Source of the DNA: an uncultured Planctomycetia bacterium
Lineage (GTDB): Bacteria; Omnitrophota; Gorgyraeia; 1-14-0-20-64-10
Length of the DNA stretch: 64,000 nucleotides
NCBI GenBank assembly: GCA_964597545.1
Contig: CAZQXN010000004.1
Coordinates: 6,683 to 70,682, forward strand
Direction of reading: 5' to 3'
Of this stretch, positions 1 through 60,502 are shown one piece after another. The stretch's first letter is position 1. Every line of letters starts with the position of its first letter. The position numbers and the translations under genes are program-made. Under the pieces are notes generated by a model. It was not told the origin of the DNA. It did not search any database and was given only the letters and a program-made list of their open reading frames with translations.

Positions 1-821
1 TCGATCGCTCCAAACAGCTTCCGATGGTGGTGGCCTCCCAGGAAGGGGGTGTTTCGATCGAGGAAACAGCGGTCTCCCGCCCCGAGGCGATTCTCACCAC
101 CCCCTTTGATCCTTTGCTGGGTCTCTATCCCTATCAGGCGCGTCGGATTATCAAAGGACTCAAGCTTCCAAAGGAGTATGAGTCTGCGGCCATCCAACAG
201 CTGGTTACACTTTCCCGCGGATTCTTCTCCAGCGATGCCTCGCTGGTAGAGATCAACCCCTGGGCGTTAACGAAGGAGCTGGGGCTGGTGGCACTGGATG
301 CCAAGCTGACCTTAGATGACAACGGCCTCTTTCGCCATCCAGAGTGGAACGAGCACAAAACCGCAGATGCCGACAGCCCCATCGAGGCCAAAGCCCGAGA
401 GATTGGCATCAACTACGTGGGATTGGAGGGAGCAGTGGGCTGCATGGTCAACGGTGCTGGGCTTGCGATGGCCACGATGGATTTGATCAAGCTGCACGGT
501 GGAGAGCCGGCCAATTTTTTGGATGTCGGGGGCGGCGCAGATGTCCATCAGGTTCGGGAGGCCTTCAAGCTGATCTTGGCCGATTCCAAGGTGAAGTCCG
601 TCCTCATCAATATCTTTGGCGGGATCATGCAGTGCGATGTAATTGCCCAAGGAATTGTTGAGGCTGCCAGCACGATCAAAGTCCAAGTTCCCTTGGTGGT
701 TCGCCTGGAGGGAACAAATGTTGAGCAAGGCCGCAAGCTTCTGGAGCAGTCCAAGCTTGGGCTCATCACTGCCGCTGACATGGATGAGGCTGCTCGGAAG
801 GTGGTGGAGGCGGCCCGATGA
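1..821 (+). CDS. sucC: Succinyl-CoA synthetase beta subunit, C-terminal part (gene continues upstream of window)
   Basis: Translation (...[23 protein letters not shown]...[22 protein letters not shown]...[14 protein letters not shown]...) matches the SucC CoA-ligase C-terminal domain. Stop overlaps the sucD start (ATGA at 818-821). Confidence 0.85.
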
Positions 822-1738
822 GTGTTTTCCTGGATAAGACCACTCGGGTTATCGTTCAGGGGATTACCGGCAGGGCCGGTTCGTTCCACGCGACCCAGAT
901 GCTGGAGTATGGCACGCAGATTGTTGGGGGTGTTACCCCAGGGCGAGGCGGACAGCAGTGGGGGGAGCTTCCGATCTTTGATACCGTTGAGGAGGCGGTG
1001 GAAAAAACAGGCGCCACCGCCACCGCCATCTTTGTCCCTGCCCCACTGGGAGCCGATGCCATCTTAGAGGCCGTAGAGTCCAAGGTGAATCTGATTGTTG
1101 TCATCACTGAAGGTATCCCGGCACAAGAGATGCTTAAGGTCAAAGCGGTGCTTAAAAACAAAAGGGGTCAGACCCCCAAAGAGAAGGGGTCAGACCCTGT
1201 GATCATCGGTCCCAACGGCCCTGGGATCATTACCCCGGGCGAGGCTAAAATCGGCATCATGCCCGGCTACATCCACCGCCCAGGTTCCATCGGGGTGGTA
1301 TCTCGCTCCGGCACCTTAACCTATGAGGCAGTTTGGCAGTTGACCCAACTGGAGTTAGGACAATCCACCTGTATTGGCGTTGGTGGGGATACCCTCCCTG
1401 GAACCGGCTTTGTTGAGATTTTGGAATGTTTTGAGGCTGATCCTGCCACGCGCGCCATAGTTCTGATCGGTGAGATCGGAGGCTCTGCCGAAGAAGAGGC
1501 CGCTCGTTTCATCCGCGCCCGTGTTCATAAGCCGGTCGTTGCTTTTGTAGCCGGAGCTACCGCACCCGCGGAAAAGCGCATGGGTCATGCCGGCGCGGTG
1601 ATTGCCCAGGGGAAGGGGACCCATGCCTCCAAGATTGAGGCTCTAACTCAAGCCGGTGTCACCGTGGCCCAGAACCCTGCCCTCATTGGAAAGACCCTTG
1701 CCGAATGCCTTGCCGGACACAAGAAGCATGTAGGATGA
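818..1738 (+). CDS. sucD: Succinyl-CoA synthetase alpha subunit, with an unusual in-frame insert at about 1141-1200
   Basis: [45 protein letters not shown]...[41 protein letters not shown] is a canonical SucD. Translationally coupled to sucC. Confidence 0.9.
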
Positions 1739-3678
1739 ACAAGCGCTGCCGGTTCTGGCTCTTGATCTGCGCAGCGGGCGCGGGTCTTGCGCTTGTTCGC
1801 TGGGTCTGGGCTGAGACTGCGGAGTTCATTACCTACTACCCCACCGCAGCCGGCATTGCCGCAACCAACACAGACAGCCTTGCCATCGGCTCTGCCTACT
1901 CCGGCCAGGTCCCTCCGGACGGCTCCCTCTGGGTAGCCGACAGAATCGGGATAGGCACCACAAGCCCCCAGGGCATCCTTCATGCAGTGGGTGTGGATGA
2001 TGCGACAAGCCTCGTCATCTTCAAAGAGGGCACAGATACCGCAGCCACAGGCGCCCCAGCAATCCGTGTTGGAATCGGCACAGACAGCCCGACCAAACAG
2101 TTGAGCTTAACCGGCAACCTGAGACTCCCCCCAACCACTGCAACCTCAGGCGTTCCAGATGGCGGGGCGATCTATCTTGGCACCAACCCCTTCATCCACG
2201 CCTACGGCACCGACAATACCTTTGCCGGTGCCAATGCCGGCAATTTCACCTTGACCACAGCAGAGGCCGCCCAAAACACCGGCATCGGCACCTCAGCCCT
2301 AGCGGGCCTTACCACAGGCAGCGACAACACAGCCGTAGGCTACCAGGCCCTAAACGCCAACACCACAGGGGCGCACAACGTTGCCGTGGGATCCGAGGCG
2401 ATGCTCGAGAACACCACCGGATCCTACAACGTCGCCGCTGGCGGCGAGGCCTTAGAGAGCAACACCACTGGAGAACACAACGTTGCAGTCGGCCGGCAGG
2501 CCCTTCAGGCCAGCCAAACAGCAGACGCCAATGTTGCTGTTGGCAGCGAGGCGCTTACCGTCAATACCACAGGGACCCTCAATGTTGCCGTGGGTTACCA
2601 GGCGCTGCACTCGAATACCACCGGCAACTACAATGTTGCCATAGGCGCAGAAGCGCTCCAATCCAACGTCACCGGGGAGCACAACACCGCTGTCGGTACT
2701 CAGGCGCTCTTAGCGAATACCGCAAGCAACAATACCGCTTTCGGCCACCGGGCCTTAGCCGCCAATACCACCGGCGTCAACAATTCTGCTTTTGGTGCGC
2801 AGGCCCTGATGAGCAACACCACCGGAAGCAACAACACCGCTTTTGGCGCCTATGCTCTTGAGAGTAACACCACCGGAAGCAACAACGTTGCCGTTGGGGT
2901 CCAAGCACTCTACAACAACGATGCTGACGGTAATGTTGCCGTGGGCCGCTCCGCTCTGCAGGCCAATGTCGCAGGGACCCACAATGTTGCAGTGGGCTAC
3001 TATGCAGGGGCCAATGCTACCGGAAACGGCAATGTTTTTGTTGGATATTCCGCAGGCCCTACCAGTGCGTCATCCGACTCTAACAGGCTTTACATCGACA
3101 ACTCTGCTTCCGACACCCCCTTGATCTACGGCGACTTCACCGATGGAAGTGAGCTCGCTGCCGTAAACGGCAACCTGGGTGTCGGTACCTCCACCTTTGG
3201 TACCGGTGCCGTTGGCGTGCTCGCCATCGCAGAGGGCACCATCCCCACCTCAAGCTCGGCCAACCAAATCCAGCTTTACGCGCAGAAGGTTACCGGAAAA
3301 GCAGAGCTCAAAGTCCTAGACGAAGCCGGCAACATTACCACACTCTCCCCCCACAACTTCACGCTCATCCCCCAAGGCCCCAGCGAACCTCTCGCCTGGT
3401 CCTTCTACTCCGAGCGAGGAGAGGCCGCCATCAACGTAGATCTGCTCAAAGCCATCCGCTTAGTCGAGCATCTCACCGGCGAACAGATCGCATATTTTAA
3501 AACACAGCAACCCACCCCCCTCCAACAGCATGACAAACCCAGTTTAAGAGAGATCCGTAACCAGATCACCGCCCTGAAAACCCACAACCGCCTGCTTCAA
3601 CAGCGGTTGGATACCGGGGAAAGACAGCTTTCTCTTCTTGAAGAAACACTTCACCGCCTGCGGGAGGAGATACAGTGA
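1735..3678 (+). CDS. Secreted beta-helix repeat protein, paralog A (tail-fibre-like N-[TV]-A-[VI]-G...N-T-T-G 17-residue repeats)
   Basis: - ATG at 1735 overlaps the sucD stop (ATGA).
- Signal-peptide-like N-terminus ([26 protein letters not shown]).
- About 17 tandem repeats of the type NVAVGxxALxxNTTGxx.
- Conserved C-terminal module ([14 protein letters not shown]...[26 protein letters not shown]) plus a coiled-coil tail. Confidence 0.7.
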
Positions 3679-5606
3679 TCCCCCGCCTTAGAACCGGACG
3701 CAAGGTCTCCTTCTTGCTGGCGGGGCTCTTCCTAGTTCGTTTGGCGTGGGCCGAGACCGTAGAGTTGGTCACCTCTTACCCCACCACCGCAGGAGGAGGA
3801 ATCATCAACACCGACAGCCTTGCCGTCGGTTCTGACTACTCCGGCCAAACCCCCCCTGACGGCACCCTCTTAGTTGCCGACAAGGTCGCTATCGGTACCA
3901 CCACCCCTGCCGGCCCCCTCCATGCAGTGGGTGTGGATGACGCAGCGAGTCTCGTCATCTTCGAGGAGGGCACCGACACCGCAGCCACAGGCACCCCAGA
4001 GATCCGCTTAGGGTTAGGCACAGACACCCCCCAAGAACAGCTTCACTTAACCGGTAACCTCATTCTCCCCAAGACCACCGCCACCTCTGGAGCTATTTAT
4101 CTTGGCGCCGACCCCTTTATCCACGGCTATCATGACGCCTACAACAACCTCTTTGTGGGTGCCCAGGCAGGCAACTTTACGATGGACAGCTCTGCCAGCT
4201 GCAACATCGGCATAGGGGCCCTTGCACTCAATGGTTTAACTGAAGAGGGGCAGAATACCGGTGTCGGCTACAAAACCTTCTTTTCCACCACAGAGGGGAA
4301 TAGGAGCGTTGCCGTGGGCAGCAAGGCTCTCAGCAGCCACATGACCGGAGATATGCAGGTTGCCATCGGCGCAGATGCTATGTTGGCGGATGAAGCGGGG
4401 TTCGGAAGCGTTGCCGTAGGATGCGCAGCGTTGTCAGAGCATACCTTCGTTGCAAATAATGTCGCTATTGGGTACGGGGTCATGAACGAACTTACCGCAA
4501 ACAGCAGCGTTGCTGTGGGGTACTTTGCCATGCACGCTTCCGTCAACCCCATAGCCCCCGTTGCCATCGGAGCGCATGCGCTTGAAAACATGGAAAGCGG
4601 ACATTATCAAAATGCTGTGGGCGCCTTAGCCCTATCTTCGAGCACCGCTGCCGACTACAACACCGCTGTAGGCTTCTCTGCCTTGCAGAACAACACAATC
4701 GGTGAGGCCAACGATGCTTTTGGGGCGTATGCGCTTAACGACAACACCACCATGGACAGCAATATTGCCATAGGCACGTATGCTCTGATGCACAATACTG
4801 TTGGGATACAAAACCTTGCTGTTGGGGTCGAGGCTGTCCGCAATTCCAGTAACCACCGCAACCTTGCATTGGGCAGGTCTGCTTTACGAGACAGCACAAC
4901 AGGGCGGAATAATGTTGTGATCGGTTTTGAAGCAGGGGTCAGTGCAACCGGAAATTACAACGTCTTTATTGGTTCGCAGGCCGGCAGCAATGAGACCGGC
5001 GACAACACCCTCTACATCGAAAACTCCGCTTCCTCCACCCCCTTGATCTACGGTGAGTTTGACAACGATCTGATCGCCATCAACGGCAACCTGGGTGTCG
5101 GTACCTCCACCTTTGGCACCGGTGCCGTTGGCGTGCTCGCCATCGCAGAGGGCACCATCCCCGGCTCAAGCCCGGCCAACCAAATCCAGCTCTACGCAGA
5201 AGAGGTCTCCTCCAGCTCAGAGCTCAAGGTCCGCGATGAAGGTGGCACCATCACCACACTCTCCCCCCACAACTTTACGCTCATCCCCCAAGGCCCCAGC
5301 GAGCCGATGGCTTGGTCCTTTTACTCCAAGCGGGGAACCCAGGCCATCAACGCCGACATACTCAAAACAGTTCGCCTCATCGAAAAGCTTTCCGGCGAGC
5401 AGCTTGTCTGGATCAAGAGCCTAAGCAGCCCACAGCCCCCTCCATCCCAGACAGCAACAGAGCCTTCCGCCTTACTCCTTGTCCAGCAGGAGCTCGAAAC
5501 CCTCAAGGCCCAGAATCAAATCCTCAGGCAGCGCCTCAAGCAACAGAGAGGGCGCATCCAATCCTTTCAAGGAGCCCTTCAGCAGCTTAAGGAGCTCCTC
5601 CGATGA
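3675..5606 (+). CDS. Secreted beta-helix repeat protein, paralog B
   Basis: - GTG start overlaps the stop of paralog A (GTGA).
- Same architecture as A: signal peptide, ETVELVTSYPTTAGG N-module, degenerate NxAxG repeats, conserved [27 protein letters not shown]-module, coiled-coil tail. Confidence 0.7.
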   Translation: MIPRLRTGRKVSFLLAGLFLVRLAWAETVELVTSYPTTAGGGIINTDSLAVGSDYSGQTPPDGTLLVADKVAIGTTTPAGPLHAVGVDDAASLVIFEEGTDTAATGTPEIRLGLGTDTPQEQLHLTGNLILPKTTATSGAIYLGADPFIHGYHDAYNNLFVGAQAGNFTMDSSASCNIGIGALALNGLTEEGQNTGVGYKTFFSTTEGNRSVAVGSKALSSHMTGDMQVAIGADAMLADEAGFGSVAVGCAALSEHTFVANNVAIGYGVMNELTANSSVAVGYFAMHASVNPIAPVAIGAHALENMESGHYQNAVGALALSSSTAADYNTAVGFSALQNNTIGEANDAFGAYALNDNTTMDSNIAIGTYALMHNTVGIQNLAVGVEAVRNSSNHRNLALGRSALRDSTTGRNNVVIGFEAGVSATGNYNVFIGSQAGSNETGDNTLYIENSASSTPLIYGEFDNDLIAINGNLGVGTSTFGTGAVGVLAIAEGTIPGSSPANQIQLYAEEVSSSSELKVRDEGGTITTLSPHNFTLIPQGPSEPMAWSFYSKRGTQAINADILKTVRLIEKLSGEQLVWIKSLSSPQPPPSQTATEPSALLLVQQELETLKAQNQILRQRLKQQRGRIQSFQGALQQLKELLR

Positions 5607-7690
5607 CCTTGCGATCAATCCGACACTGGGCCCTCTTGTTCTTGGCAGTTGCCTCCTTTACCTGGCTGGCCCGGGCAGACACCGTGGAATTCACCATCTA
5701 CCACCCGGTCTCAACCGGTGCCGGAGGAACACACGCCGATGAACTGGCCATCGGATCTACCTACTCCAGCGAGACCCCCGGCGACGGCAGCTTAATCGTC
5801 GCCGACCGCTTAGGGATAGGGACCACCAGCCCCGCAGGCCCCCTCCATGTGGTAGGTGTGGACGACACAACCAGCTACGTCATCTTCAAGGAAGGGGCCA
5901 ACACCGCAGCTGCCGGCACCCCGGAGATCCGCGTAGGACTCGGCACCGACGACCCCCAAGAACAACTTCACTTAACCGGTAACCTCAGACTCCCCCCAAC
6001 CACCGTTGACTACGGCTACAAAGCTGGAGTCATCTATACCGACCCCGAAGGTTCCCTGAACCACTATATTCACGGTGATGGTGTTTCAGGAACCTTTATT
6101 GGAAGAGGAGCGGGCAATCTGGTGGTTGATTCCGCGATTGCCCGAAACGTTGGTATCGGCCGATCTGCCCTTTGTGATCCGGACTATACCGGATCAGACA
6201 ATACGGCTGTGGGGGGCAGCGCCTTAAGCTTCAATGAAGATGGGCAGTGGAATGTGGTTGTTGGAGATAGTGCGATGGCTTACAATCTTTCCGGGACTTC
6301 AAATACCGCTTTGGGCCTTTCTGCACTCAATAGCAACACAACCGGCAACTCCAACGTTGCTCTGGGATACAACGCTTTGGTTCAGAACACGACAGGGAGT
6401 TTTAACACTGCTGTTGGGGTGCGCACTTTAACTCAAAGTGCCGACGGCGAAAGGAATGTGGCCGTTGGAGCCAACGCCCTCAGGGACAATCAGGCTGTCG
6501 GCAGCAATGTGGCAGTCGGCGCTGGAGCGCTTGCATCAAATACTACCGGAGAGGGAAATGTTGCCGTAGGCATTGCCTGCCTCGGGCGAAATAGTACCGC
6601 AGATCACAATACGGGCATAGGTCGCTTTGCGCTGTGGGAAAACACCACAGGCTCAGAAAATTCGGTTTTGAGCGGATGGGAGGGTGGCAAAGACAACACA
6701 ACCGGAAGCAGTAACACCGGCGCAGGGTGTAGGGTTCTCTACAGGAATACAACAGCGAGCGACCAAGTTGCGCTGGGTGGGATGGCGCTTGGTAACAGTG
6801 CTCTTGGGGACGGCAGCGTTGGGATTGGCCAATCCGCACTTGCCGCAGATCAGGCAGGGCCCAACAACGTTGTCATTGGCTATGAGGCGGGAAAGTTAGC
6901 TTGCGGTGCCGGCTGCGTCTTTATCGGAAACTGGGTTGGTAGAAGCGAGATGGATAGCGAACAACTCCACATCGATAACTCCTCCACAGACACCCCCTTG
7001 ATCTGCGGTGAGTTCACCGATGGCAGCGAGCTCGTCACCGTAAACCACAACTTAGGTGTTGGCACCGCCACCTTTGGCACCGGTGCCGTTGGCGTGCTCG
7101 CCATCGCCAACGGCGCTATCCCCACCTCAAGCCCGGCCGACCAGATCCAGCTCTACGCTCAGGATGTGGATCAAGGAGGCGGCACCATGCGCTCAGAGCT
7201 TTATGTCCGGGACGAAGCCGGCAATCCGCCCACAAAGCTCTCGGATCCACCCCTGGTGGCAGCTCGCCTCACACCCGGGATCCCGGAGGATTGCAGCAAT
7301 GTGACTGCACTCTCCCCCCATAACTTCTCCCTGATCCCTGGGGGTCCCAGTGAACCGATGGCCTGGTCCTTCTACTCTGAACGTGGAGATACCGCCATCA
7401 ACGTAGACATGCTCAGAGTCGTCCGCTTGGTGGAGCAGATCTCTGGTGAGCACCTCGTCTACCTCAAAGATCTCAAAGCCGGTCAATATTTCCTGCAGCT
7501 GGCCGACATGAAAGAGCTTCCCAGCATAAAACAGTTGAGCGAGCAGGTCGCCACCGTCGGCGCTGAGCAGCGTGCTTTCGAACAGGAGTTGGCAGCGCAG
7601 GAGGAAGATCTGCGCCTCATCCAAGAAATGCTAACCGGGGACGGTCCATTTGGGGACACACCGTGGTCGGCCATTGCGAAAAGGCAGTAG
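5603..7690 (+). CDS. Secreted beta-helix repeat protein, paralog C
   Basis: - ATG overlaps the stop of paralog B (ATGA).
- Signal peptide, conserved N- and C-modules ([26 protein letters not shown]), divergent repeat core.
- 3' end overlaps the left inverted repeat of the RAYT cassette. Confidence 0.7.
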   Translation: MTLRSIRHWALLFLAVASFTWLARADTVEFTIYHPVSTGAGGTHADELAIGSTYSSETPGDGSLIVADRLGIGTTSPAGPLHVVGVDDTTSYVIFKEGANTAAAGTPEIRVGLGTDDPQEQLHLTGNLRLPPTTVDYGYKAGVIYTDPEGSLNHYIHGDGVSGTFIGRGAGNLVVDSAIARNVGIGRSALCDPDYTGSDNTAVGGSALSFNEDGQWNVVVGDSAMAYNLSGTSNTALGLSALNSNTTGNSNVALGYNALVQNTTGSFNTAVGVRTLTQSADGERNVAVGANALRDNQAVGSNVAVGAGALASNTTGEGNVAVGIACLGRNSTADHNTGIGRFALWENTTGSENSVLSGWEGGKDNTTGSSNTGAGCRVLYRNTTASDQVALGGMALGNSALGDGSVGIGQSALAADQAGPNNVVIGYEAGKLACGAGCVFIGNWVGRSEMDSEQLHIDNSSTDTPLICGEFTDGSELVTVNHNLGVGTATFGTGAVGVLAIANGAIPTSSPADQIQLYAQDVDQGGGTMRSELYVRDEAGNPPTKLSDPPLVAARLTPGIPEDCSNVTALSPHNFSLIPGGPSEPMAWSFYSERGDTAINVDMLRVVRLVEQISGEHLVYLKDLKAGQYFLQLADMKELPSIKQLSEQVATVGAEQRAFEQELAAQEEDLRLIQEMLTGDGPFGDTPWSAIAKRQ

Positions 7691-7742
7691 TTAATAGAGG
7701 GCGCGATAGAGAAGAAGCAAGTTTCCTATTTCTGACATAATA

Positions 7743-7772
7743 TTGATAATATGCAAAATCTTGTGGTATGCT
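7743..7772 (+). promoter_or_regulatory. Putative sigma70-type promoter for the RAYT gene (TTGATA - 18 nt - TATGCT, with TG upstream)
   Basis: TTGATA at 7743-7748 and TATGCT at 7767-7772 in an AT-rich gap upstream of the ATG at 7792. Shares an ATATGCAA motif with two other promoter-like sites. Confidence 0.35.
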
Positions 7773-7791
7773 GTCGATCGGGTAATAAAAC

Positions 7792-8388
7792 ATGCCACGA
7801 GTTGCAAGACAAGCCAGTGCGGCGGGATATTATCATGTTGTAGCCAGAGGGCATAACCGTCAGGCCATCTTCCGGGATTCCCAAGACTACCAACAATACC
7901 TCATCTATTTGTCACGTTTTAAAGAAGCGCCATCCTGTCGCTGTTACCATTTCTGCCTTATGCCGAATCATCTCCATTTGTTGCTTGGGATGGATTCTGT
8001 GCGTTCTCTCACTGGGATGATGCGACGAGTGCAGCAGGCATACCAGTTTCATTGGCGTCGTCGCTATGATCTCGTAGGCAATCTTTGGCAGGGAAGGTTT
8101 AAGAGTATTCCGGTTGATCAAGACGAGTACTTATTGGAGGCCAGTCGCTATATTGAACGGAATCCCGTCCGGGCGAAATTATGCGTTCTTCCTGAAGACT
8201 ATCCGTGGTCGAGCGCTCACCTTTACCTTAAGGAGCGAAGCAAAGGGTGCGGTTTGCTTGATTTGAGCCCGGCGTACTTGATGTTAGGTTCCAGCGAAGA
8301 GAAGAGACGGCAACGGTACCGGGAACACATAATGCAAGTACGGCCATATGACCAATTGGTTGACGCACAGATGGAGCGACTGATTTGA
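7792..8388 (+). CDS. REP-associated tyrosine transposase (RAYT), IS200/IS605 TnpA-like HUH Y1 transposase
   Basis: N-terminal YHVVARGHNRQAIF and HUH motif LMPNHLHLLL are typical of Tnp_REP / Y1 transposases. 198 aa. Confidence 0.8.
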   Translation: MPRVARQASAAGYYHVVARGHNRQAIFRDSQDYQQYLIYLSRFKEAPSCRCYHFCLMPNHLHLLLGMDSVRSLTGMMRRVQQAYQFHWRRRYDLVGNLWQGRFKSIPVDQDEYLLEASRYIERNPVRAKLCVLPEDYPWSSAHLYLKERSKGCGLLDLSPAYLMLGSSEEKRRQRYREHIMQVRPYDQLVDAQMERLI

Positions 8389-8450
8389 TGTGCAACGAGG
8401 ACACCTTCCCGGTCAAGGTGATGTAGGTGTGTCCCCAAATGGACCGTCCC

Positions 8451-9809
8451 CTATTGGGTTTGGCCGGTAAAGGTAAAGTCCTTCAACAGCACAGCCGGGG
8501 TGACCACCGAGGTAGCGCCTGAGATCGGATCGGCCACCAGACGAACCTCCTCGGAAAGGGCCTGGATTTTTGAGAAGGCCTGAAGAATCGACTGCGTAAA
8601 CCGTAAATTCTTCACAGCGCTCACCACCCTACCTCTCTCCACCAGAAAGGTTCCGTCTCGAGTCAACCCCGTCATCAAGGCCTGCTGTGTGTCGAGCAGC
8701 CCGTTGACGTAGTGGAAGCGAGTAATCCATAGCCCTCGATCCATACATTGAAGCATTTGGTGATGCGGTACCTTACCCGGGGCCACACAGAGATGGGCGG
8801 CCCCGGGCCCTTCGGCGGCTTCGTCAAAGGCAGGGGCATGCCCGGTGGAGTGGCGGTGGTACAGCTTGGCGTATTGGCTGTCAAAGACCACCCCGCGGGC
8901 CCGTCCCCCCTCAACCAGCGGTACGCGCCTCTTCGGGATCCCTTCAAAATCAAAGGGAGTTGCCAGCCCGCGGGTATCGGTACCGTCATCCCAGATCGAC
9001 AGCGTTGGATGCATGAGTTGCTCTCCCATGCGGCCTGCAAAACAGCTGGTTCGCTCATGCAGCTGTTTGGCCCCAAAGGCGATGGTGGAAAGCCACTCCA
9101 CCAATTCCGCCACCGCCTCGGGCTCAAGCAGGACATTGTACTTCCCCAACCGGATGGTTTTGGAGTTCCTGTTATGCCTGCAGTGGTCCAGGGCTTGCTG
9201 TAGAAGGGACTGTGGGTTGAGGGTCTTGGGGTCGCGAACAGCCCCTGCTGCAAAGCCAGAAGCCTTGCCTTGGGTGGGAATCAATCTTAAGCCCGTGGTT
9301 GAGAAGGGCTGATACTGCGCAAGCCCCCCAGAGCCTACCACGCAGAACTCCTCCTCTCCTGTTGCAAAGGAGCCGGCCAAGTCCATTCCAGCGCGGTGGG
9401 TTTGTTGGGAGAGCTCTCGGATCATTCGGATGTTCTTGGTCAGGTTCTGGCGGTGATCCACTGGGAAGTGCGTCTTGATGGGGGCGGGTTTTTCGCGGGG
9501 TGGATGCGCGCTGAAGGCCGGTGCAGTCTGCTTGCTGGGGAGCCGTGCAATTTGAAGCGCAGAGGCAATCGCGCAAGTGAGTGCACGGTCGCTCAGTGAA
9601 GATGTGGTGGCAACCCCGGCGCGCCCCTCTGCCGCTACCTTGACCCAGACGGTGACATCCTCCTCATGGAAATTTTGATGAATGGCACCCCCGGCAAAGC
9701 GCAGGGTAGTCTTGGCGCCCCGCTGTACGGTTAAAAGGGTCTCATCGGCCGGTGATCTCTTTGCCGCCTCCTTAAGTACAGTCACCATGCGGGATTTACC
9801 CAGGAGCAT
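8451..9809 (-). CDS. pmbA: TldE/PmbA-family metalloprotease-associated protein
   Basis: 452-aa protein with TldD/PmbA-family layout. Start overlaps the stop of the tldD-like gene upstream on the minus strand. Confidence 0.75.
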   Translation of the reverse strand: MLLGKSRMVTVLKEAAKRSPADETLLTVQRGAKTTLRFAGGAIHQNFHEEDVTVWVKVAAEGRAGVATTSSLSDRALTCAIASALQIARLPSKQTAPAFSAHPPREKPAPIKTHFPVDHRQNLTKNIRMIRELSQQTHRAGMDLAGSFATGEEEFCVVGSGGLAQYQPFSTTGLRLIPTQGKASGFAAGAVRDPKTLNPQSLLQQALDHCRHNRNSKTIRLGKYNVLLEPEAVAELVEWLSTIAFGAKQLHERTSCFAGRMGEQLMHPTLSIWDDGTDTRGLATPFDFEGIPKRRVPLVEGGRARGVVFDSQYAKLYHRHSTGHAPAFDEAAEGPGAAHLCVAPGKVPHHQMLQCMDRGLWITRFHYVNGLLDTQQALMTGLTRDGTFLVERGRVVSAVKNLRFTQSILQAFSKIQALSEEVRLVADPISGATSVVTPAVLLKDFTFTGQTQ

Positions 9810-13008: not shown

Positions 13009-16000
13009 TTATGCTCCTGTTGCCAGTTCCTCCAGCCCCACCATGAAGGCGGGCAATTCTGTGGCAAGGAGGTGTTGGTCAACCCCCATGCGTTCAAAAA
13101 TATACTGAATCATTGCCGCTGCGTTTGCTGCTGCCGCCCGGACGACTGTTCCTGTAATGCCGGCATACTCCGCCAAGCTGAACAACAGGTCCGTCTCCTC
13201 CAGGCCGCCCAGCGCCCGAAAAGAGCGGGCATCTAAGGCAACGAGCTGGGTAACGACTCCTGCCGGATCAGTTCCATCATGAATCAGAGCTCTATCCTCA
13301 AGCCCGGCAAAAGCTCTTACAACCGGATCTTCCGCCAGATCTCCTCCAATCACAAAGAAGGAGTTGGGGTGGGTAGCAGAGCGATGGAGTCGCTCCAGTC
13401 GCCCCTCAATAGAGACCGGCCAAGAAACTGCTTCCTCCAGGCCTGTAGCGGGTCCACCAATGAGGTATGGCTCAAGATTCATCTGCAAGCCTGCATCTTT
13501 CTTGGGAAGGTTTTCCCATACCTTAACAATCTGATCTGCGGGAATCTCTAAAACGCGTTCTAGAATCGATAAATGGACCTCTGGAGTATCTTCCCTGGCG
13601 CCAAAGAGCCTGAGGGTGTCCACCTTGTTGCGATTGGAAAGGTATCGGAAGGGGATGACGTTTTCATCTGGCCGAACATTCACAGCGGCAACCCGAGCAT
13701 AGGGAAAATCCACGTATTGGTGTACGGTTTCTGGGGGATGTCCTGTAAAATCAAATTCAGCCAGGACGGCGTCAGATCGGTTACCTCTTGTTGCATAGCT
13801 CATCGCATGCTCTGGGATCTGCGTGATATTAGCATCTGAGCCAAACGGGGTTTCGTAATAGGGCAGCCCTCCATGCTCCAGGAGCTTCCATTTAAAGCTC
13901 TCCCAATTAGCTCCGTGCAACCAAACGTGACCGATCCACTGCGATCTTTCATCTTCGGTTGTCTCTCTAAAATATGCTTGTCCGCTTTCATTGGTGTCCA
14001 TCGTGACTTCGAAGCGCACAATGGCTTCATTTGCGCCCTGATAATTTAGCTCGCCGCCACTTCCATCCGCGGATTGATACGAGAGGTTTTGCTTTCCCCC
14101 TCCCTGCGCTGCAAGACGAGTTGCGCTTTTGATGGATCGAAATAGCTCCAGTCGGGTTGCCATGATCTTTGACCGCTCTCGCCATTCAATGCCCTCATCA
14201 GTTGTTACAAATTTGATGTCGCCAGCATCAACCTTTGCCAAAATAGCCTTTGTGAGCATGATGGCTGCCCAGGGACTAACGATGTCATCTTCGTTAATTG
14301 AGATTTTCGCCTTATCTCTAAATACCAGACGATGCGATTGGTCAGACCATCGGATATCGGGAAATACCGGCACATAATGAGGCTCGTGCATTGAAATGAT
14401 CAGCGGAGACTGCGCCTGAATAGACCCGGCTAACCCCTCGACTTTCTGTATGGTTCGTAGGTCTAATTCCTCCAAGCCTGTAGCGGGCTTCAGATCCAGT
14501 AACTCCACTATCTGCCTGGCTGAGCGCAGATAAGCATCAAACGCACTTTTGGATGAATAAGTAGAAGGGGTCGTTCTCATCTCTGCAGCGGACAGCTCTC
14601 CGGTTACAAACTGAGCAAGCCTATGGGCATCTGCCAGATGCAACCGTCTTGCGCCGCTGTCTGTCCCGAGATGCAGATCGTAATACCTCACAGCATCGGA
14701 GAACCGTGTCGGGTTGGGCATCGCTCCAAACCAAACTGCCAGCAAAAGCTGAACAACATGTTTGGGCTCCTTGAAACTAAAGCTATCTGAGGCTGGAAGC
14801 TCTTTCTCTAATACTTGGCGGGCAGCGGAGAAGGAGAGCTTGCCAGCCAAGAACTCTGGCAAGATATGCTGCGCTTCCTGGCGAAGTTTTAACAAGGTGT
14901 GCCAGGGGACGACAGTTTGATCGATAACATCCGGTGTATGAATGGGGTGTGCTTTGCCCGGGACCCACCCTTTGTAATCCAGATCAACGTCGAAAAGCAG
15001 ATCGGTCACTCCCTGCGGAATCTGTTCGGTATGCGCACGGTTGGCCGCCTCTTCGAACATCGCAGGAGGGATCCCCTGGAGATCCAGAACAATCAAGGTA
15101 TCTGTTCCGACACCAAGCAAAATCTGCTCCCCTCGTTTCGACATCACCTCCAGAATTGCCAGGATGGGGTGGGCTTCTGGGATCTTTGAGTCGAAGAAGT
15201 CGGTTTCCAAATAGACAATGTCGGGCCATCCCCAGCGGTAATGGATGTGCTCCAACAACAACTGGGCAGGTGCGCCAGAAAGCATATACGGAATTGCTTG
15301 AATCCACTTTTCTAACCCTTCGGGGGTTTGAATCGGGTGAAACCGTTCAAGCTCATGGATAGTGATCCGTAGATTTGATTTCTTATCTTCAATGATTTTG
15401 GGGTCAGCCGAGGGGGCATTGGGATCAGGCAAGTCAAGATAAGGTTTTTGCTGCCTTCGGTAATGGCTCGACTTATCAAACAAAAGCTGGCGAACACCTT
15501 GAGGAACTCGGGAAAAATGGGCCCGTTTTTTCATCTCCTCGAAGACCACCCGATCATCCGGGCCGGCCTCGATTCCTTCGCTATCCACAACCACCAACTC
15601 ACCGGAGCCGACTGCTACCACAACCTCTTTGGGCCGCTGGGCTACCTGATCTAGCGCATGGGAGATGCTCAATGCTGAGGCAGCCCTGTCTCTCCAGAAG
15701 CTCTCTGCGACAAGATAGGCAACCACTTCGTTTGGCCACTGATCATCAATGTATTGCAAAAGTTGTTGGGCCGCCCGCTCAGAAAGAATTTCCCACTTGG
15801 CCGATAAAGCCGAAAAAGCTTCTGGTTCTCGCAGAAGATTCATTATTGGCACATTGTTCAAAAACGGCGGCTGCTCCTCTATCCCGGCAGCAGCTGTGGG
15901 ACTCAATGCTTCCTTGAGTTGGAGGGTGACAGGGGACCCCTCTTCCATCCCTGCATTTAAGGGTCGCAACGCCCAGGCAGCGGGGGTGGGCAAAGCTAGG

Positions 16001-16053
16001 CCAGCGCTTAGCAGAAACATTAGGATTCTGTAGATGACCGGCTGCCTTTTCAT
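13009..16053 (-). CDS. Large secreted protein of unknown function (1015 aa from proposed start), with an internal duplication and recurrent A-x-G-L-E-E motifs
   Basis: - Signal peptide MKRQPVIYRILMFLLSAGLALPTPAAWA.
- Two internal roughly 100-aa repeats (...WP..V.YL....F...........LVV.D..GI......RAH....PQGV..LLFD).
- No recognisable enzymatic motif.
- ORF opens at 16113. Confidence 0.6.
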   Translation of the reverse strand: MKRQPVIYRILMFLLSAGLALPTPAAWALRPLNAGMEEGSPVTLQLKEALSPTAAAGIEEQPPFLNNVPIMNLLREPEAFSALSAKWEILSERAAQQLLQYIDDQWPNEVVAYLVAESFWRDRAASALSISHALDQVAQRPKEVVVAVGSGELVVVDSEGIEAGPDDRVVFEEMKKRAHFSRVPQGVRQLLFDKSSHYRRQQKPYLDLPDPNAPSADPKIIEDKKSNLRITIHELERFHPIQTPEGLEKWIQAIPYMLSGAPAQLLLEHIHYRWGWPDIVYLETDFFDSKIPEAHPILAILEVMSKRGEQILLGVGTDTLIVLDLQGIPPAMFEEAANRAHTEQIPQGVTDLLFDVDLDYKGWVPGKAHPIHTPDVIDQTVVPWHTLLKLRQEAQHILPEFLAGKLSFSAARQVLEKELPASDSFSFKEPKHVVQLLLAVWFGAMPNPTRFSDAVRYYDLHLGTDSGARRLHLADAHRLAQFVTGELSAAEMRTTPSTYSSKSAFDAYLRSARQIVELLDLKPATGLEELDLRTIQKVEGLAGSIQAQSPLIISMHEPHYVPVFPDIRWSDQSHRLVFRDKAKISINEDDIVSPWAAIMLTKAILAKVDAGDIKFVTTDEGIEWRERSKIMATRLELFRSIKSATRLAAQGGGKQNLSYQSADGSGGELNYQGANEAIVRFEVTMDTNESGQAYFRETTEDERSQWIGHVWLHGANWESFKWKLLEHGGLPYYETPFGSDANITQIPEHAMSYATRGNRSDAVLAEFDFTGHPPETVHQYVDFPYARVAAVNVRPDENVIPFRYLSNRNKVDTLRLFGAREDTPEVHLSILERVLEIPADQIVKVWENLPKKDAGLQMNLEPYLIGGPATGLEEAVSWPVSIEGRLERLHRSATHPNSFFVIGGDLAEDPVVRAFAGLEDRALIHDGTDPAGVVTQLVALDARSFRALGGLEETDLLFSLAEYAGITGTVVRAAAANAAAMIQYIFERMGVDQHLLATELPAFMVGLEELATGA

Positions 16054-16270
16054 AAGGTCCGTATTCATACTACAAGTATGGCACATTGGAGAAAAAATAG
16101 ACAAGTTCAGCAATCTAAAATTGGTACGATTAACTCATTGGGGGAGGGTGGTGGATTCAAGCGACGGTCGGAAAGCAGCCAAGACAGGTTCAGGGACCAA
16201 AGAGCAGTTTGTTAACCTTGCATAGAAAACTGGTTGACATTTACTCCTCCCGTAAGGGATAACGGTACTC

Positions 16271-19295: not shown

Positions 19296-20723
19296 ATGGT
19301 TTCTTCTGATTTACAGACTCGTTACCTCAAGGCACAATTGGCCTTTCTGGATGGCCAGATGCTTATGGACCCCAGCGTCAATGATCAAGTCGGATTTGAT
19401 TTTCAAGGTCTAAGGCGCAGCTACTTTGATGACCCAAAGCACGGGCAGTCCAAGTTTGTCGCGCACTCAGGGCGTGTCTGGATCTATGACGTGGCCCTAT
19501 CGATCTACGCAGACCTTAAATCCAAACGGTTCCAGCAGGCTGTCCATCAGGCTGATCGGGTGGTCCAGCTGGCGCAGAGGGAAGAGGAGCGAGGTTTCCA
19601 GGGGCTGTGGCACTTTTCCTACAACACGAAAGAGGACAGCTTCATCGATCCGCGTGGGCCCACCGGCGCCAATGCCTGGTGCTTGAATGCCCTCTACGCC
19701 TGCGCGCTGGAACGCGGGGATAGGGCGCTGTTGGCTTGGCTGAACCAGAAGGTAGAGAGCTACCTCTTTGGCGAGCAGGTGATCAACCGCAAAGATCCAC
19801 GCCACGGCCTCATTCGATCTGGGCGCTACAACGCCGATGACCTCGCTCGGGAAGATTCCATGGGATATGACGTGTACAGAGGAGACCTGAATCATTCCTA
19901 CGAACACGTTATTTTGGAACATTGCGCCGATGCTGCCGGAACATTCCGGCTGGCCTTCCGGGCCAACCGGCGGTTGGATCCAAAGAACAAACCGTTTCTC
20001 GAGATCCTCATCGAGCGTCATGACTGGCTCATTCAGGGGATGCGGCGCTGTTTCTGGCAGGGGGATCATTTTGTTTCTGCCCTGGATGGCCAAGGGCAAT
20101 TGTACCGGGGAAGAGACGGTCAGCCCAGCGTTGCCGTGGACAACAACACCTGGTCAGCCCACATCTTTGTGCCCTATGACTTAGAGCTAGCCCGTTCGGC
20201 AGCTCGCTACGTGGAGGATCGGTTCATCACCCAGGTCCCTCCGGCTATGCTGGAAGATCTTCCATCTGACTCCACGCAGGCAGGTTCCGTGCAGGAGGGG
20301 CTGGAGGGGTTGTATTACTTCCCGGACACCTTTGCCGATCCCTTTGTCCAGATTCCTGACCAGAGACGTGAAAAAGTAGAAAAACTTCTCCACCCGGAGG
20401 CTGCCTTGGGGTTTGTTCTGTTCCTCCTCGGTTTGGCCGATCACCTCTCGGGTTCGGAGCAAGAACGCTTGCGCCAACGAGCACTGAAGCTCTACGAGGA
20501 TACCGCCAATCTCCAGGGACTCTACGGTGCGCACGCCGCCCCTTACGCAAGCGTCAACATTCCTCCGATCTTCTCCACCCTCCACTCTGTGACGACGGCT
20601 GCATGCGGAGTGATTACCACTAGGATCCTGCAGGGGGCACCCAGCGATGATTTCATCGGGGTGATGCCGCCCAAGGAGATGACAGTTGCAGGTCAAGCGC
20701 CTGCCCGCTCCATTGATGACTAG
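19296..20723 (+). CDS. Hypothetical protein within the bio operon (475 aa), unknown function
   Basis: Intact ORF between bioF and bioD-bioA. No diagnostic motif recognised; composition is alpha-helical and enzyme-like. Confidence 0.5.
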   Translation: MVSSDLQTRYLKAQLAFLDGQMLMDPSVNDQVGFDFQGLRRSYFDDPKHGQSKFVAHSGRVWIYDVALSIYADLKSKRFQQAVHQADRVVQLAQREEERGFQGLWHFSYNTKEDSFIDPRGPTGANAWCLNALYACALERGDRALLAWLNQKVESYLFGEQVINRKDPRHGLIRSGRYNADDLAREDSMGYDVYRGDLNHSYEHVILEHCADAAGTFRLAFRANRRLDPKNKPFLEILIERHDWLIQGMRRCFWQGDHFVSALDGQGQLYRGRDGQPSVAVDNNTWSAHIFVPYDLELARSAARYVEDRFITQVPPAMLEDLPSDSTQAGSVQEGLEGLYYFPDTFADPFVQIPDQRREKVEKLLHPEAALGFVLFLLGLADHLSGSEQERLRQRALKLYEDTANLQGLYGAHAAPYASVNIPPIFSTLHSVTTAACGVITTRILQGAPSDDFIGVMPPKEMTVAGQAPARSIDD

Positions 20724-60049: not shown

Positions 60050-60385
60050 CCCACTGCAGCTCAATACGCAGGCGGCAGTCACTCGCACAACTCGCACTCG
60101 TGGGACGCTCACCAGGAGCGGCGGAATCGGGGCGGATTTGACGTAACTATTGATCAGGTATTAGGTTAACGAGATTTGTGCTTGCGGGCCCGGAACGCTG
60201 GGGGGCCGAAAAATTTGATGAAATTACCCCCTTGCAGCTTAGGAGATAGTGTATACTTTCTTACTGTAAGGAACAATATAGGTCTGAAAAAGGCAAACTA
60301 TCCGAAAGGGTAGGGCGTAACGCCATAGAGCCGTCAGGGTTATGTAATGTAACCCCCGGCAGTCGGTTGCCAGATCAAACGGTAA

Positions 60386-60424: not shown

Positions 60425-60502
60425 TTGTACACTAGCTTGATTCTTGGCGGAAGAAGATATGGTGGAATCTCAAAGGGATTGAAGGAAAAGGGGGTTGCGG
60501 GA

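What the first reader, a model, noticed from the sequence alone, without database searches (positions are those of the whole stretch)
1735..7690. Three tandem, translationally coupled paralogs of a secreted tail-fibre-like beta-helix repeat protein, wired directly onto sucCD
The three ORFs overlap start on stop (ATGA, GTGA, ATGA), and the first overlaps the sucD stop, so they are probably co-translated with a TCA-cycle operon.

They share:
- a signal peptide and a conserved N-module (E-T-[AV]-E-[FL]...YP...G......D.LA.GS.YS...P.DG.L.VAD..GIGTT.P.G.LH.VGVDD);
- a core of 17-residue N-x-A-x-G...N-T-T-G repeats, perfect in A and degenerate in B and C;
- a conserved C-module (...DTPLI.GEF.D...[33 protein letters not shown]......LSPHNF.LIP.GPSEP.AWSFYS.RG..AIN.D.L...RL.E..SGE.L);
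- a coiled-coil tail.

This repeat type is characteristic of phage tail fibres and trimeric-adhesin heads, but here there is no phage context and no S74 chaperone domain. Divergence is concentrated in the repeat core, which suggests a diversifying surface or adhesin family.
Basis: partly seen in the sequence, partly recalled or inferred. Interest (0 to 1): 0.75.

Follow-up and report, generated by a model that had tools for sequence, protein, structure and literature searches.

The report
Phage-fibre-like secreted protein trio, Omnitrophota
Three back-to-back genes next to sucCD in an uncultured Omnitrophota bacterium encode fast-evolving, exported proteins built like phage tail fibres; they most likely form surface fibres, and they end in a widespread domain that no database describes, in the place where related proteins carry the usual self-cleaving S74 chaperone domain.

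Summary
sucD (818-1738) is followed by paralogs A (1735-3678), B (3675-5606) and C (5603-7690), joined by ATGA/GTGA/ATGA overlaps.

Each paralog has:
- a Sec-type signal peptide;
- a 150-aa N-module;
- exactly 15 in-register 17-residue units (TTGxxNVAxGxxALxxN);
- a linker (LYIxNS..PLIYGEF);
- a ~115-aa C-domain;
- a coiled-coil tail.

The repeat core matches phage virion-fibre and tail-spike families. Most of its homologues end in an S74 chaperone domain; these three do not.

The C-domain is not lineage-specific. It matches about 4,800 cluster representatives, has no Pfam or NCBIfam family, and a confident model has no PDB fold match. It occurs in a real phage fibre gene and in proteins of Bacteroidota, Patescibacteria, Acidobacteriota and Omnitrophota.

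The host is an Omnitrophota bacterium and the neighbouring genes are housekeeping genes, not phage genes.

A sister population keeps the sucCD…tldD position. Its flanking proteins are 89-95% identical, but its fibre orthologues are only 55-68% identical. It also has a different copy number, two disrupted copies, and no gene overlaps. The link to sucCD is therefore positional, not metabolic.

Best reading: Bdellovibrio-MAT-like surface fibres, a new variant of a known kind. The trimer and the beta-helix were not tested.

The parts
818..1738 (+). sucD (succinyl-CoA ligase alpha subunit). Its TGA stop overlaps the ATG of paralog A.
   Evidence: Pfam CoA_binding, Ligase_CoA and Succ_CoA_lig. Junction read.
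1735..3678 (+). Paralog A, 647 aa. Signal peptide 1735-1812; N-module 1813-2259; 15 x 17-aa repeat units 2260-3018; linker from 3079; C-domain 3160-3507; P/Q-rich spacer and coiled-coil helix 3508-3675.
   Evidence: AF2 models. PHROG hits.
3675..5606 (+). Paralog B, 643 aa, GTG start. Signal peptide 3675-3752; N-module 3753-4187; repeat units 4188-4946; C-module from 5007; C-domain 5082-5429; tail 5430-5603.
5603..7690 (+). Paralog C, 695 aa. Signal peptide 5603-5677; N-module 5678-6130; repeat units 6131-6901; C-module 6956-7687, with a 26-aa insertion that its orthologue P0006 also has.
3662..3669 (+). Shine-Dalgarno-like GGGAGGAG, 6 nt before the GTG of B, inside the 3' end of A.
5589..5594 (+). 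Shine-Dalgarno-like AAGGAG, 8 nt before the ATG of C, inside the 3' end of B.
3850..3856 (+). C7 homopolymer in codons Q-T-P-P of B. The orthologous site in the sister population is C8, which shifts the frame.
7792..8388 (+). IS200/Y1-type transposase gene directly after C. It sits where the sister contig has a fifth, 486-aa family member.
   Evidence: Pfam Y1_Tnp, 1.4e-13..

Best explanation
A, B and C are chromosomal genes of an Omnitrophota bacterium. They encode Sec-exported proteins built like phage tail fibres, which most likely assemble into elongated surface fibres used for attachment to other cells or to surfaces. The closest functional analogue is the non-S74 branch of the Bdellovibrio 'mosaic adhesive trimer' (MAT) proteins.

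Proposed working, step by step:
1. Expression (inferred). The genes are read through from sucCD. A has no good ribosome-binding site, so it would start by re-initiation at the ATGA overlap. B and C have their own sites.
2. Export (heuristic). The signal peptide is cut at AxA|(E/D)T, exposing a lineage-specific mature N-terminus, ETxE(L/F)xTYYPT.
3. Anchoring (inferred by analogy). The conserved 150-aa N-module stays close to the cell surface.
4. Shaft. The 15 x 17-residue repeats form the shaft. Homology to phage virion fibre/spike families is shown. The fold and the trimeric state are inferred.
5. Assembly (inferred). The C-terminal cassette (linker, ~115-aa domain, spacer, coiled coil) acts as the assembly or trimerisation module. 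Among repeat-core homologues it stands where the S74 intramolecular chaperone usually stands, but it is not an S74 domain.
6. Turnover (shown). The family changes quickly through duplication, loss and frameshift, as expected for a variable surface repertoire.

The position next to sucCD is inherited genome layout, not a metabolic link.
For: **Repeat core**
- It matches phage virion structural and tail-spike PHROGs at 1e-30 to 1e-57.
- 7,755 homologues share only the repeat core, and most of the listed ones carry PF13884 (S74).
- Among the best 120, 67 end in an S74-like motif. Every member with the C-domain has the same linker 7-9 residues before it, and S74-bearing P0033 has that linker too.

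**C-domain**
- 4,825 cluster representatives match at E<=1e-3 and 531 at E<=1e-30, almost always at the extreme C-terminus.
- It is 50-66% identical across phyla.
- A real phage contig (L004), with head, structural and internal-virion-protein genes, has a fibre gene with the same repeat + linker + C-domain order.

**Cellular, not phage**
- Signal peptides are present.
- The neighbouring genes are housekeeping genes.
- The position between sucCD and pmbA/tldD is conserved in a sister population.
- The host is an Omnitrophota bacterium. The best named UbiD-family hits, at 68-70% identity, are all Omnitrophota/Omnitrophica MAGs. The window also shares gene order with MAG L084, which has a family member with the same mature N-terminus.

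**Fast evolution**
- Flanking proteins are 89-95% identical to the sister population, while fibre orthologues are 55-68% identical.
- The sister array has four further paralog genes (one of them frameshifted), a deletion pseudogene and a fifth family member.

**Literature**
- MAT proteins have a signal peptide, a conserved ~130-aa N-domain, a trimeric fibre, and S74 or swappable non-S74 tips, and they sit on the predator's surface (PMC10769870).
- Omnitrophota are proposed to be mostly predators or parasites (PMC10066038).
Against: - No trimer, beta-helix or surface location was tested here.
- Homology of the N-module to the MAT N-domain could not be tested. The solved MAT fragments in the PDB show no sequence similarity to these proteins and no fold similarity to the C-domain.
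- The C-domain is the most conserved part. That fits an assembly module, but it would also fit a tip that binds a conserved ligand.
- The same C-domain + coiled-coil cassette also sits on LVIVD-repeat proteins (P0182). It is therefore not tied to fibre shafts.
- How the protein would cross the outer membrane is unknown.
- Host dependence of this particular organism is assumed from what the literature says about the phylum.
Confidence: 0.55

Rival explanations
1. The C-domain is not an assembly module. It is a conserved ligand-binding or cell-envelope-binding tip. Phages would use it to bind hosts. Cellular proteins would use it to bind prey or hosts, or to anchor themselves to their own envelope.
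For: - It lies at the distal (C-terminal) end of a phage fibre.
- It is attached to unrelated passenger domains such as LVIVD repeats, as portable binding or anchoring domains often are.
- It has a block of near-invariant polar residues, [20 protein letters not shown], together with D94 and E103 (numbered on the 116-aa C-domain fragment). That would suit a binding or metal site.
- Weak BFVD matches are to phage minor tail and tail fibre proteins.
Against: - Identity of 50-66% across Omnitrophota, Patescibacteria, Bacteroidota and phages is unusual for receptor-binding tips, which are normally the most variable part.
- It occupies the slot that S74 chaperones occupy in homologues.
- It is often followed by a coiled coil.
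Confidence: 0.25
2. A, B and C co-assemble into one heterotrimeric fibre. Translational coupling would supply equal amounts of each chain, and the divergent coiled-coil tails would select the partners.
For: - Three paralogs with three stop/start overlaps.
- All three have exactly 15 repeat units in the same register, with almost no insertions or deletions in the core, despite only 35-51% identity.
- The tails are very different between paralogs (15-21% identity) but are kept between orthologues (42-62%).
Against: - The sister population has a different number of copies. Two are disrupted and the genes do not overlap.
- MAG L084 has a single copy at the place examined.
- Overlaps are common genome-wide.
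- Known fibres of this kind, phage and MAT, are homotrimers (PMC10769870).
Confidence: 0.1
3. The genes are left over from a prophage or tailocin tail-fibre module.
For: Repeat-core PHROG hits, and a phage fibre with the same architecture.
Against: - No other phage gene was found among the genes checked, which lie within about 24 kb of the locus.
- Sec signal peptides are present, and phage fibres lack these.
- The chromosomal position is conserved in a sister population.
- The mature N-terminus is shared with a different protein of the same lineage.
Confidence: 0.04
4. The overlap with sucD reflects a real functional link between TCA-cycle activity and fibre production.
For: The ATGA overlap and the lack of a ribosome-binding site for A. 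Adjacency to sucCD is kept in the sister population.
Against: - In the sister population the copy next to sucD is dead: ATG changed to ATA, an in-frame stop, and an internal deletion.
- MAG L084 has its copy in a biotin/menaquinone gene cluster instead.
- No known biochemistry links the two functions.
Confidence: 0.04

Closest known systems
Bdellovibrio bacteriovorus MAT (mosaic adhesive trimer) fibre proteins, non-S74 subgroup (Caulton et al. 2024, PMC10769870)
   Same: - Cellular genes, not phage genes.
- A signal peptide followed directly by a conserved N-terminal domain of about 130-150 aa.
- A long shaft resembling a phage fibre.
- A C-terminus that is either S74 or a swappable alternative domain.
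- A multi-copy family in a bacterium that lives on other cells.
   Different: - No detectable sequence similarity to the solved MAT fragments.
- These proteins are shorter (about 650 aa against about 1,000 aa).
- They are tandem and overlapping.
- Here the C-terminal domain is the most conserved part, not a variable tip, and it is followed by a coiled coil.
Phage tail fibres and spikes, and bacterial 'tail fiber domain-containing proteins', that end in the Peptidase_S74 intramolecular chaperone (PF13884; K1F endosialidase, T5 L-shaped fibre)
   Same: - Homologous 17-residue repeat core.
- Some S74 proteins share the LYIxNS..PLIYGDF linker.
- A C-terminal module followed by a helical or coiled-coil segment.
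   Different: - No S74 Pfam hit.
- No SDxxxK motif.
- Profile-profile match covers only 15 columns at 65% probability.
- A Sec signal peptide and a chromosomal housekeeping context.
Trimeric autotransporter adhesins (YadA/Hia type)
   Same: JGI labels many repeat-core homologues 'trimeric autotransporter adhesin'. The N-x-A-x-G repeat resembles YadA-head repeats (from memory, not tested).
   Different: - No C-terminal YadA anchor barrel and no Hep_Hag hit.
- The protein ends in a soluble coiled coil.
- No sequence match to any TAA structure in the PDB.

Membership tests
Peptidase_S74 / intramolecular chaperone fibres (PF13884) | C-terminal S74 domain detectable by the Pfam profile | tested here: not met
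   No Pfam family at E<=0.1 for A or C. B has only a chance DUF4763 match. NCBIfam finds nothing. The same Pfam search does find S74 in homologue P0033.
Peptidase_S74 / intramolecular chaperone fibres (PF13884) | Catalytic S-D-x-x-x-K motif at the cleavage site | tested here: not met
   The motif is present in 67 of the 120 best repeat-core homologues. The scan used excluded C-domain proteins from the S74 class by design. Reading the A, B and C C-module sequences directly shows no such motif near the C-terminus.
Peptidase_S74 / intramolecular chaperone fibres (PF13884) | Profile or fold similarity of the C-terminal module to S74 | tested here: not met
Phage virion fibre / tail-spike repeat families (PHROG 6002, 23837, 4636) | Significant profile match of the repeat core | tested here: met
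   E 2e-57 to 1e-30 for all three paralogs.
Phage virion fibre / tail-spike repeat families (PHROG 6002, 23837, 4636) | Encoded in a phage structural module | tested here: not met
   The neighbours are sucCD, an IS200-type transposase, pmbA/tldD, bio genes and ubiD. The position is syntenic in the sister population.
Bdellovibrio MAT superfamily | Signal peptide followed by a conserved N-terminal domain shared by all family members | tested here: met
   Heuristic signal peptides. A 150-aa N-module, 58-69% identical among the paralogs. This is met as an architecture only.
Bdellovibrio MAT superfamily | Homology of the N-domain or shaft to Bdellovibrio MAT proteins | tested here: inconclusive
   Full-length MAT sequences could not be obtained with these tools. 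The profile of A1 against PDB sequences, which should include the solved MAT fragments, found nothing beyond coiled-coil noise.
Bdellovibrio MAT superfamily | Intertwined trimeric beta-prism or beta-helix fibre | not tested
Bdellovibrio MAT superfamily | Alternative C-terminal domains on a common shaft (S74 or non-S74) | tested here: met
   Homologues with the same repeat core end in S74, in the C-domain, or in other modules.
Bdellovibrio MAT superfamily | Location on the cell surface and binding to prey | not testable with these tools
   This needs microscopy or biochemistry on an uncultured organism.
Trimeric autotransporter adhesins | C-terminal YadA-type membrane anchor barrel | tested here: not met
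   No Pfam hit. The C-terminus is a predicted 43-residue helix that gives only coiled-coil-like PDB hits.

The most novel reading that the evidence does not exclude
The linker + ~115-aa C-domain (with or without the coiled coil) is a previously unrecognised assembly or trimerisation module that works without S74 and may process itself. It would be shared by phage fibres and by surface fibres and giant surface proteins of ultra-small, host-dependent bacteria (Omnitrophota, Patescibacteria) and of Bacteroidota. Its near-invariant block [20 protein letters not shown], together with Asp94 and Glu103 (numbered on the 116-aa C-domain fragment), would form a catalytic or metal site on the threefold axis.
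Probability: 0.3. Interest if true: 0.7.

Novelty: new variant of a known kind. Interest (0 to 1): 0.5.

Why it matters
- **A candidate attachment tool.** It would give an uncultured, probably host-dependent phylum (Omnitrophota) a concrete set of candidate attachment proteins. They resemble the fibres that Bdellovibrio uses to recognise prey.
- **An unannotated domain.** The C-terminal domain matches about 4,800 cluster representatives, has no Pfam or NCBIfam family, and has no solved fold. It stands where the S74 chaperone stands in thousands of fibre proteins.
- **Practical value.** Defining this domain would improve the annotation of phage receptor-binding proteins and of the giant surface proteins of Patescibacteria. 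It could also reveal a second way to assemble trimeric fibres.
- **What is ordinary.**

Tried and rejected
- **Sequence libraries.** Pfam and NCBIfam found no family for the three proteins.
- **PDB by sequence.** The single-protein search found nothing, and the two profile searches found only sub-significant coiled-coil hits.
- **AFDB50.** This fold library was not available.
- **S74 homology.** The profile-profile test was not supported.
- **Cultured phages.** tblastn of the C-domain against INPHARED gave no match.
- **Organism name.** The organism had to be inferred from UbiD hits and from synteny.
- **Literature.** A search for the C-domain motif found no paper, and general searches on tail-fibre-domain proteins were not useful.
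- **Recent gene conversion between paralogs.** Rejected: DNA identity in the conserved modules is only 70-83%, with no near-identical tracts.
- **Promoter and terminator scan.** Nothing convincing between sucD and C.
- **Further copies in the window.** None.
- **dN/dS.** Not attempted, because synonymous sites are probably saturated at this divergence.

Full report
**1. Observation**

The ORF map shows partial sucC (24-821), sucD (818-1738), and then three long ORFs on the + strand:
- A: 1735-3678, 647 aa from the ATG at 1735
- B: 3675-5606, 643 aa, GTG start
- C: 5603-7690, 695 aa

Reading the junctions confirms the ATGA, GTGA and ATGA stop/start overlaps. B and C have Shine-Dalgarno-like sequences inside the upstream gene: GGGAGGAG at 3662-3669 and AAGGAG at 5589-5594. 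A has none that is convincing.

Such overlaps are common in this genome. There are nine NTGA overlaps between long ORFs in the 64-kb window, including sucC/sucD, and six of them lie outside this locus. A consensus scan finds no convincing promoter or terminator between sucD and the end of C.

**2. Anatomy**

An alignment of the three paralogs with four relatives (A1), together with my scripts, gives the following order of parts.

- **Signal peptide.** It is tripartite, with 2-4 K/R, a hydrophobic core with mean hydropathy above 2.1, and AxA cleavage sites: VWA|ET, AWA|ET and ARA|DT. This is a heuristic result, not a SignalP result.
- **N-module.** About 150 aa, beginning with the mature N-terminus ETxE(L/F)xTYYPT.
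- **Repeats.** Exactly 15 in-register 17-residue units per paralog, with consensus TTGxxNVAxGxxALxxN. The consensus is sharp in A and degenerate in B and C. The 51-nt period is also visible in the DNA.
- **Linker.** LYIxNS..PLIYGEF.
- **C-domain.** About 115 aa.
- **Spacer and tail.** A Pro/Gln-rich spacer, then a helix of about 45 residues with heptad character. Hydrophobic residues fill 0.55 of the a/d positions, against 0.25 overall. AF2 gives the helix pLDDT 96-98.

Identity between the paralogs, by region:

| Region | Identity between paralogs |
|---|---|
| N-module | 58-69% |
| Repeat core | 35-51% |
| Linker + C-domain | 65-71% |
| Tail | 15-21% |

So the repeat core diverges more than the two end modules, but the tail diverges most. 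No near-identical DNA tracts exist between the paralogs (70-83% at best). Recent gene conversion is therefore not evident.

**3. What the parts are related to**

- *Curated libraries.* Pfam and NCBIfam find nothing.
- *Repeat core.* It matches PHROG families annotated as virion structural protein or tail spike, at E 1e-30 to 2e-57.
- *Full-length relatives.* A search with A returns 7,755 proteins. Full-length relatives occur only on the window's own contig and on two JGI contigs. All other hits share just the repeat core, and most of those carry PF13884, the S74 'chaperone of endosialidase' domain. Among the best 120, 67 end in an S74-like SDxxxK motif. Ten have the linker followed by the C-domain. 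Eighteen have the linker followed by something else.
- *S74 link.* S74-bearing P0033 has the same LYIANS..PLIYGDF linker. The C-domain therefore stands where S74 usually stands.

**4. The C-domain is widespread and undescribed**

- *How common.* An exhaustive profile search with the C-module finds 4,825 cluster representatives at E<=1e-3 and 531 at E<=1e-30. The domain (profile positions ~25-142) is nearly always at the very C-terminus of proteins of 120-2,000+ aa. The coiled-coil tail is optional.
- *No annotation.* The word-indexed search gives 569 hits, and none of the 120 listed carries a Pfam family that could correspond to the C-domain. A few carry Pfam domains elsewhere in the protein (PF26696, PF08309). 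Identity across phyla is 50-66% over the domain.
- *Conserved residues.* The near-invariant residues form the block [20 protein letters not shown], together with W80, D94, R100 and E103 (numbered on the 116-aa C-domain fragment).
- *Viral structure library.* Foldseek against BFVD gives only weak, partial matches (E 3e-5 to 4e-2, TM 0.4-0.55). They are to proteins of uncultured Caudovirales and to Streptomyces phage minor tail or tail fibre proteins.
- *Cultured phages.* None in INPHARED has the domain.
- *Uncultured phages.* IMG/VR contigs do have it. In L004 the fibre gene (7248-8807) has the same repeat core, linker, C-domain and a charged tail. It sits beside genes matching head, structural and internal virion protein families.
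- *Genomes.* In species-representative genomes the domain was found at 79 loci. All are MAGs or SAGs:

| Lineage | Loci |
|---|---|
| Bacteroidota | 33 |
| Patescibacteria | 16 |
| Acidobacteriota | 9 |
| Alpha- and Gammaproteobacteria | 9 |
| Desulfobacterota-type | 4 |
| Omnitrophota, Bdellovibrionales and others | 1 each |

- *Notable genome cases.* One complete Moraniibacteriota genome has at least five copies, on proteins of about 2,300 aa. Many Bacteroidota members have classic signal peptides. Six genome loci hold two adjacent genes with the domain.
- *Other passenger domains.* The same domain + spacer + coiled-coil cassette also ends LVIVD-repeat proteins (P0182). It is therefore a portable C-terminal cassette.

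**5. Organism and context**

- The rest of the window holds housekeeping genes: pmbA/tldD, bioB, bioF, a bioD-bioA fusion and a UbiD-family decarboxylase. An IS200/Y1 transposase gene sits right after C.
- All of the closest named relatives of the UbiD-family protein (68-70% identity) are Candidatus Omnitrophota/Omnitrophica MAGs. The first named hits from other phyla appear at 55-60%.
- The window shares the gene order bioF-orf475-bioDA-ubiE-like…ubiD with Omnitrophota MAG JAHFFE010000001 (L084), at 56-73% protein identity.
- That MAG has one family member, with the same signal peptide + ADTVELVTYYPT start, repeats, linker, C-domain and coiled coil. It is inserted between bioDA and the ubiE-like gene, with 33-nt and 7-nt spacers.
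- The family is therefore a normal cellular gene family of this lineage, tucked into housekeeping gene clusters at different places.

**6. Comparison with a sister population**

JGI contigs L001 and L002 carry the same region: mdh-sucC-sucD … pmbA-tldD-bioB.

- *Rates.* Flanking proteins are 89-95% identical to the window's. The fibre orthologues are 68% (A/P0002), 55% (B/P0007) and 56% (C/P0006) identical. C and P0006 share a 26-aa insertion, so the duplications are older than the split.
- *Array content.* The sister array differs:
  - Directly after sucD lies a pseudogene. The start is ATA instead of ATG, there is an in-frame TAG, and the N-module is fused to a remnant of the tail, with the repeats and C-domain deleted.
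  - Then come P0003 and P0002.
  - The B-orthologue follows. It is split by a frameshift in a C8 tract in both assemblies, where the window has C7 at 3850-3856.
  - Then comes P0006.
  - Last is a 486-aa protein that shares the signal peptide and the ETLELVTYYPT start but has a dockerin-like segment and a different C-terminus.
- *No overlaps.* Genes there are separated by roughly 70-130 nt and do not overlap.
- *Conclusion.* The position next to sucCD is ancestral, but translational coupling to sucD is not maintained. The locus gains, loses and inactivates copies quickly.

**7. Interpretation**

The best-supported reading is a family of Sec-exported surface fibres resembling phage fibres. The closest described system is the Bdellovibrio MAT family: signal peptide, conserved ~130-aa N-domain thought to sit at the predator's surface, trimeric fibre, and either S74 or swappable non-S74 C-terminal domains (PMC10769870). 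Omnitrophota are proposed to be largely predators or parasites of other microbes (PMC10066038), which makes attachment a plausible role.

I propose that the N-module is the end nearest the cell, the 15 repeats are the shaft, and the conserved C-terminal cassette is an assembly or trimerisation module that stands in for S74.

What is shown:
- the gene architecture;
- homology of the repeat core to phage fibre families;
- the S74-equivalent position of the C-domain;
- the breadth of the C-domain and its lack of annotation;
- the cellular context;
- the fast turnover of the family.

What is inferred:
- export of the protein;
- trimer formation and the fold of the shaft;
- location on the cell surface;
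- the role of the C-domain.

The main rival is that the C-domain binds a conserved ligand or the cell envelope. A heterotrimer of A, B and C is not excluded, given equal repeat numbers and paralog-specific tails, but the sister array argues against it. A prophage remnant and a real metabolic link to sucCD are both unlikely.

**8. Verdict**

This is a new variant of a known kind: cellular proteins resembling phage fibres, MAT-like. The most interesting element is the widespread, unannotated, S74-replacing C-terminal domain, not the sucCD overlap. Interest is about 0.5.

Noticed in passing
window 3850-3856; L002 ~2745-2752; L001 ~9180: A poly-C tract in paralog B is C7 (in frame) in the window. 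It is C8 (a frameshift, giving a 51-aa plus a 578-aa ORF) at the orthologous site in two independent assemblies of the sister population. This could be slipped-strand phase variation or a fixed pseudogene. C7 runs are not enriched in the window overall (11 found, about 32 expected).
   Followed up: partly
L001 4337-5020: A decayed family member lies directly after sucD in the sister contig. The start is ATA instead of ATG, there is an in-frame TAG, and an internal deletion joins the N-module to a remnant of the coiled-coil tail.
   Followed up: yes
L002 6618-8078; window 7792-8388: The sister contig has a 486-aa protein with the same signal peptide and ETLELVTYYPT mature N-terminus, but with a dockerin-like segment and an unrelated C-terminus. 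In the window, an IS200/Y1-type transposase gene occupies that position.
   Followed up: partly
window 60282-60374 (+): A c-di-GMP-I riboswitch (RF01051, 51.4 bits, gathering score 35) lies just upstream of the ORF at 60425-61645.
   Followed up: no
window 20686-22827 (+): A single ORF fuses dethiobiotin synthase-like (AAA_26/CbiA) and class-III aminotransferase (BioA-like) domains. The same fusion and the same neighbouring gene order occur in Omnitrophota MAG L084.
   Followed up: partly
P0182; L116, L121, L126, L132, L135, L148: Proteins with an LVIVD-type N-terminal region in Acidobacteriota, Desulfobacterales and Saprospiraceae MAGs carry the same C-domain, so it is not confined to fibre shafts. 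In P0182, whose full sequence was read, the domain is followed by the spacer and a coiled coil.
   Followed up: partly
L105, L109, L118, L119, L122 (CP175956.1): One complete Candidatus Moraniibacteriota genome (1.29 Mb) holds at least five giant proteins (~2,290-2,390 aa) that carry the C-domain about 250 aa before their C-terminus.
   Followed up: no
window 13009-16113 (-) and 51347-57001 (+): Two very long ORFs (1,034 and 1,884 aa) have no Pfam family at E<=1e-5. They do not contain the N-module, the repeat core or the C-domain.
   Followed up: partly
BFVD entry A0A6J5LUF8: The best viral structure match of the C-domain model is a 1,032-aa protein of an uncultured Caudovirales phage, annotated as containing an intramolecular chaperone auto-processing domain (E 3.4e-5, TM 0.55, 24% identity). 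I could not determine whether the match lies inside that protein's S74 domain or upstream of it.
   Followed up: no
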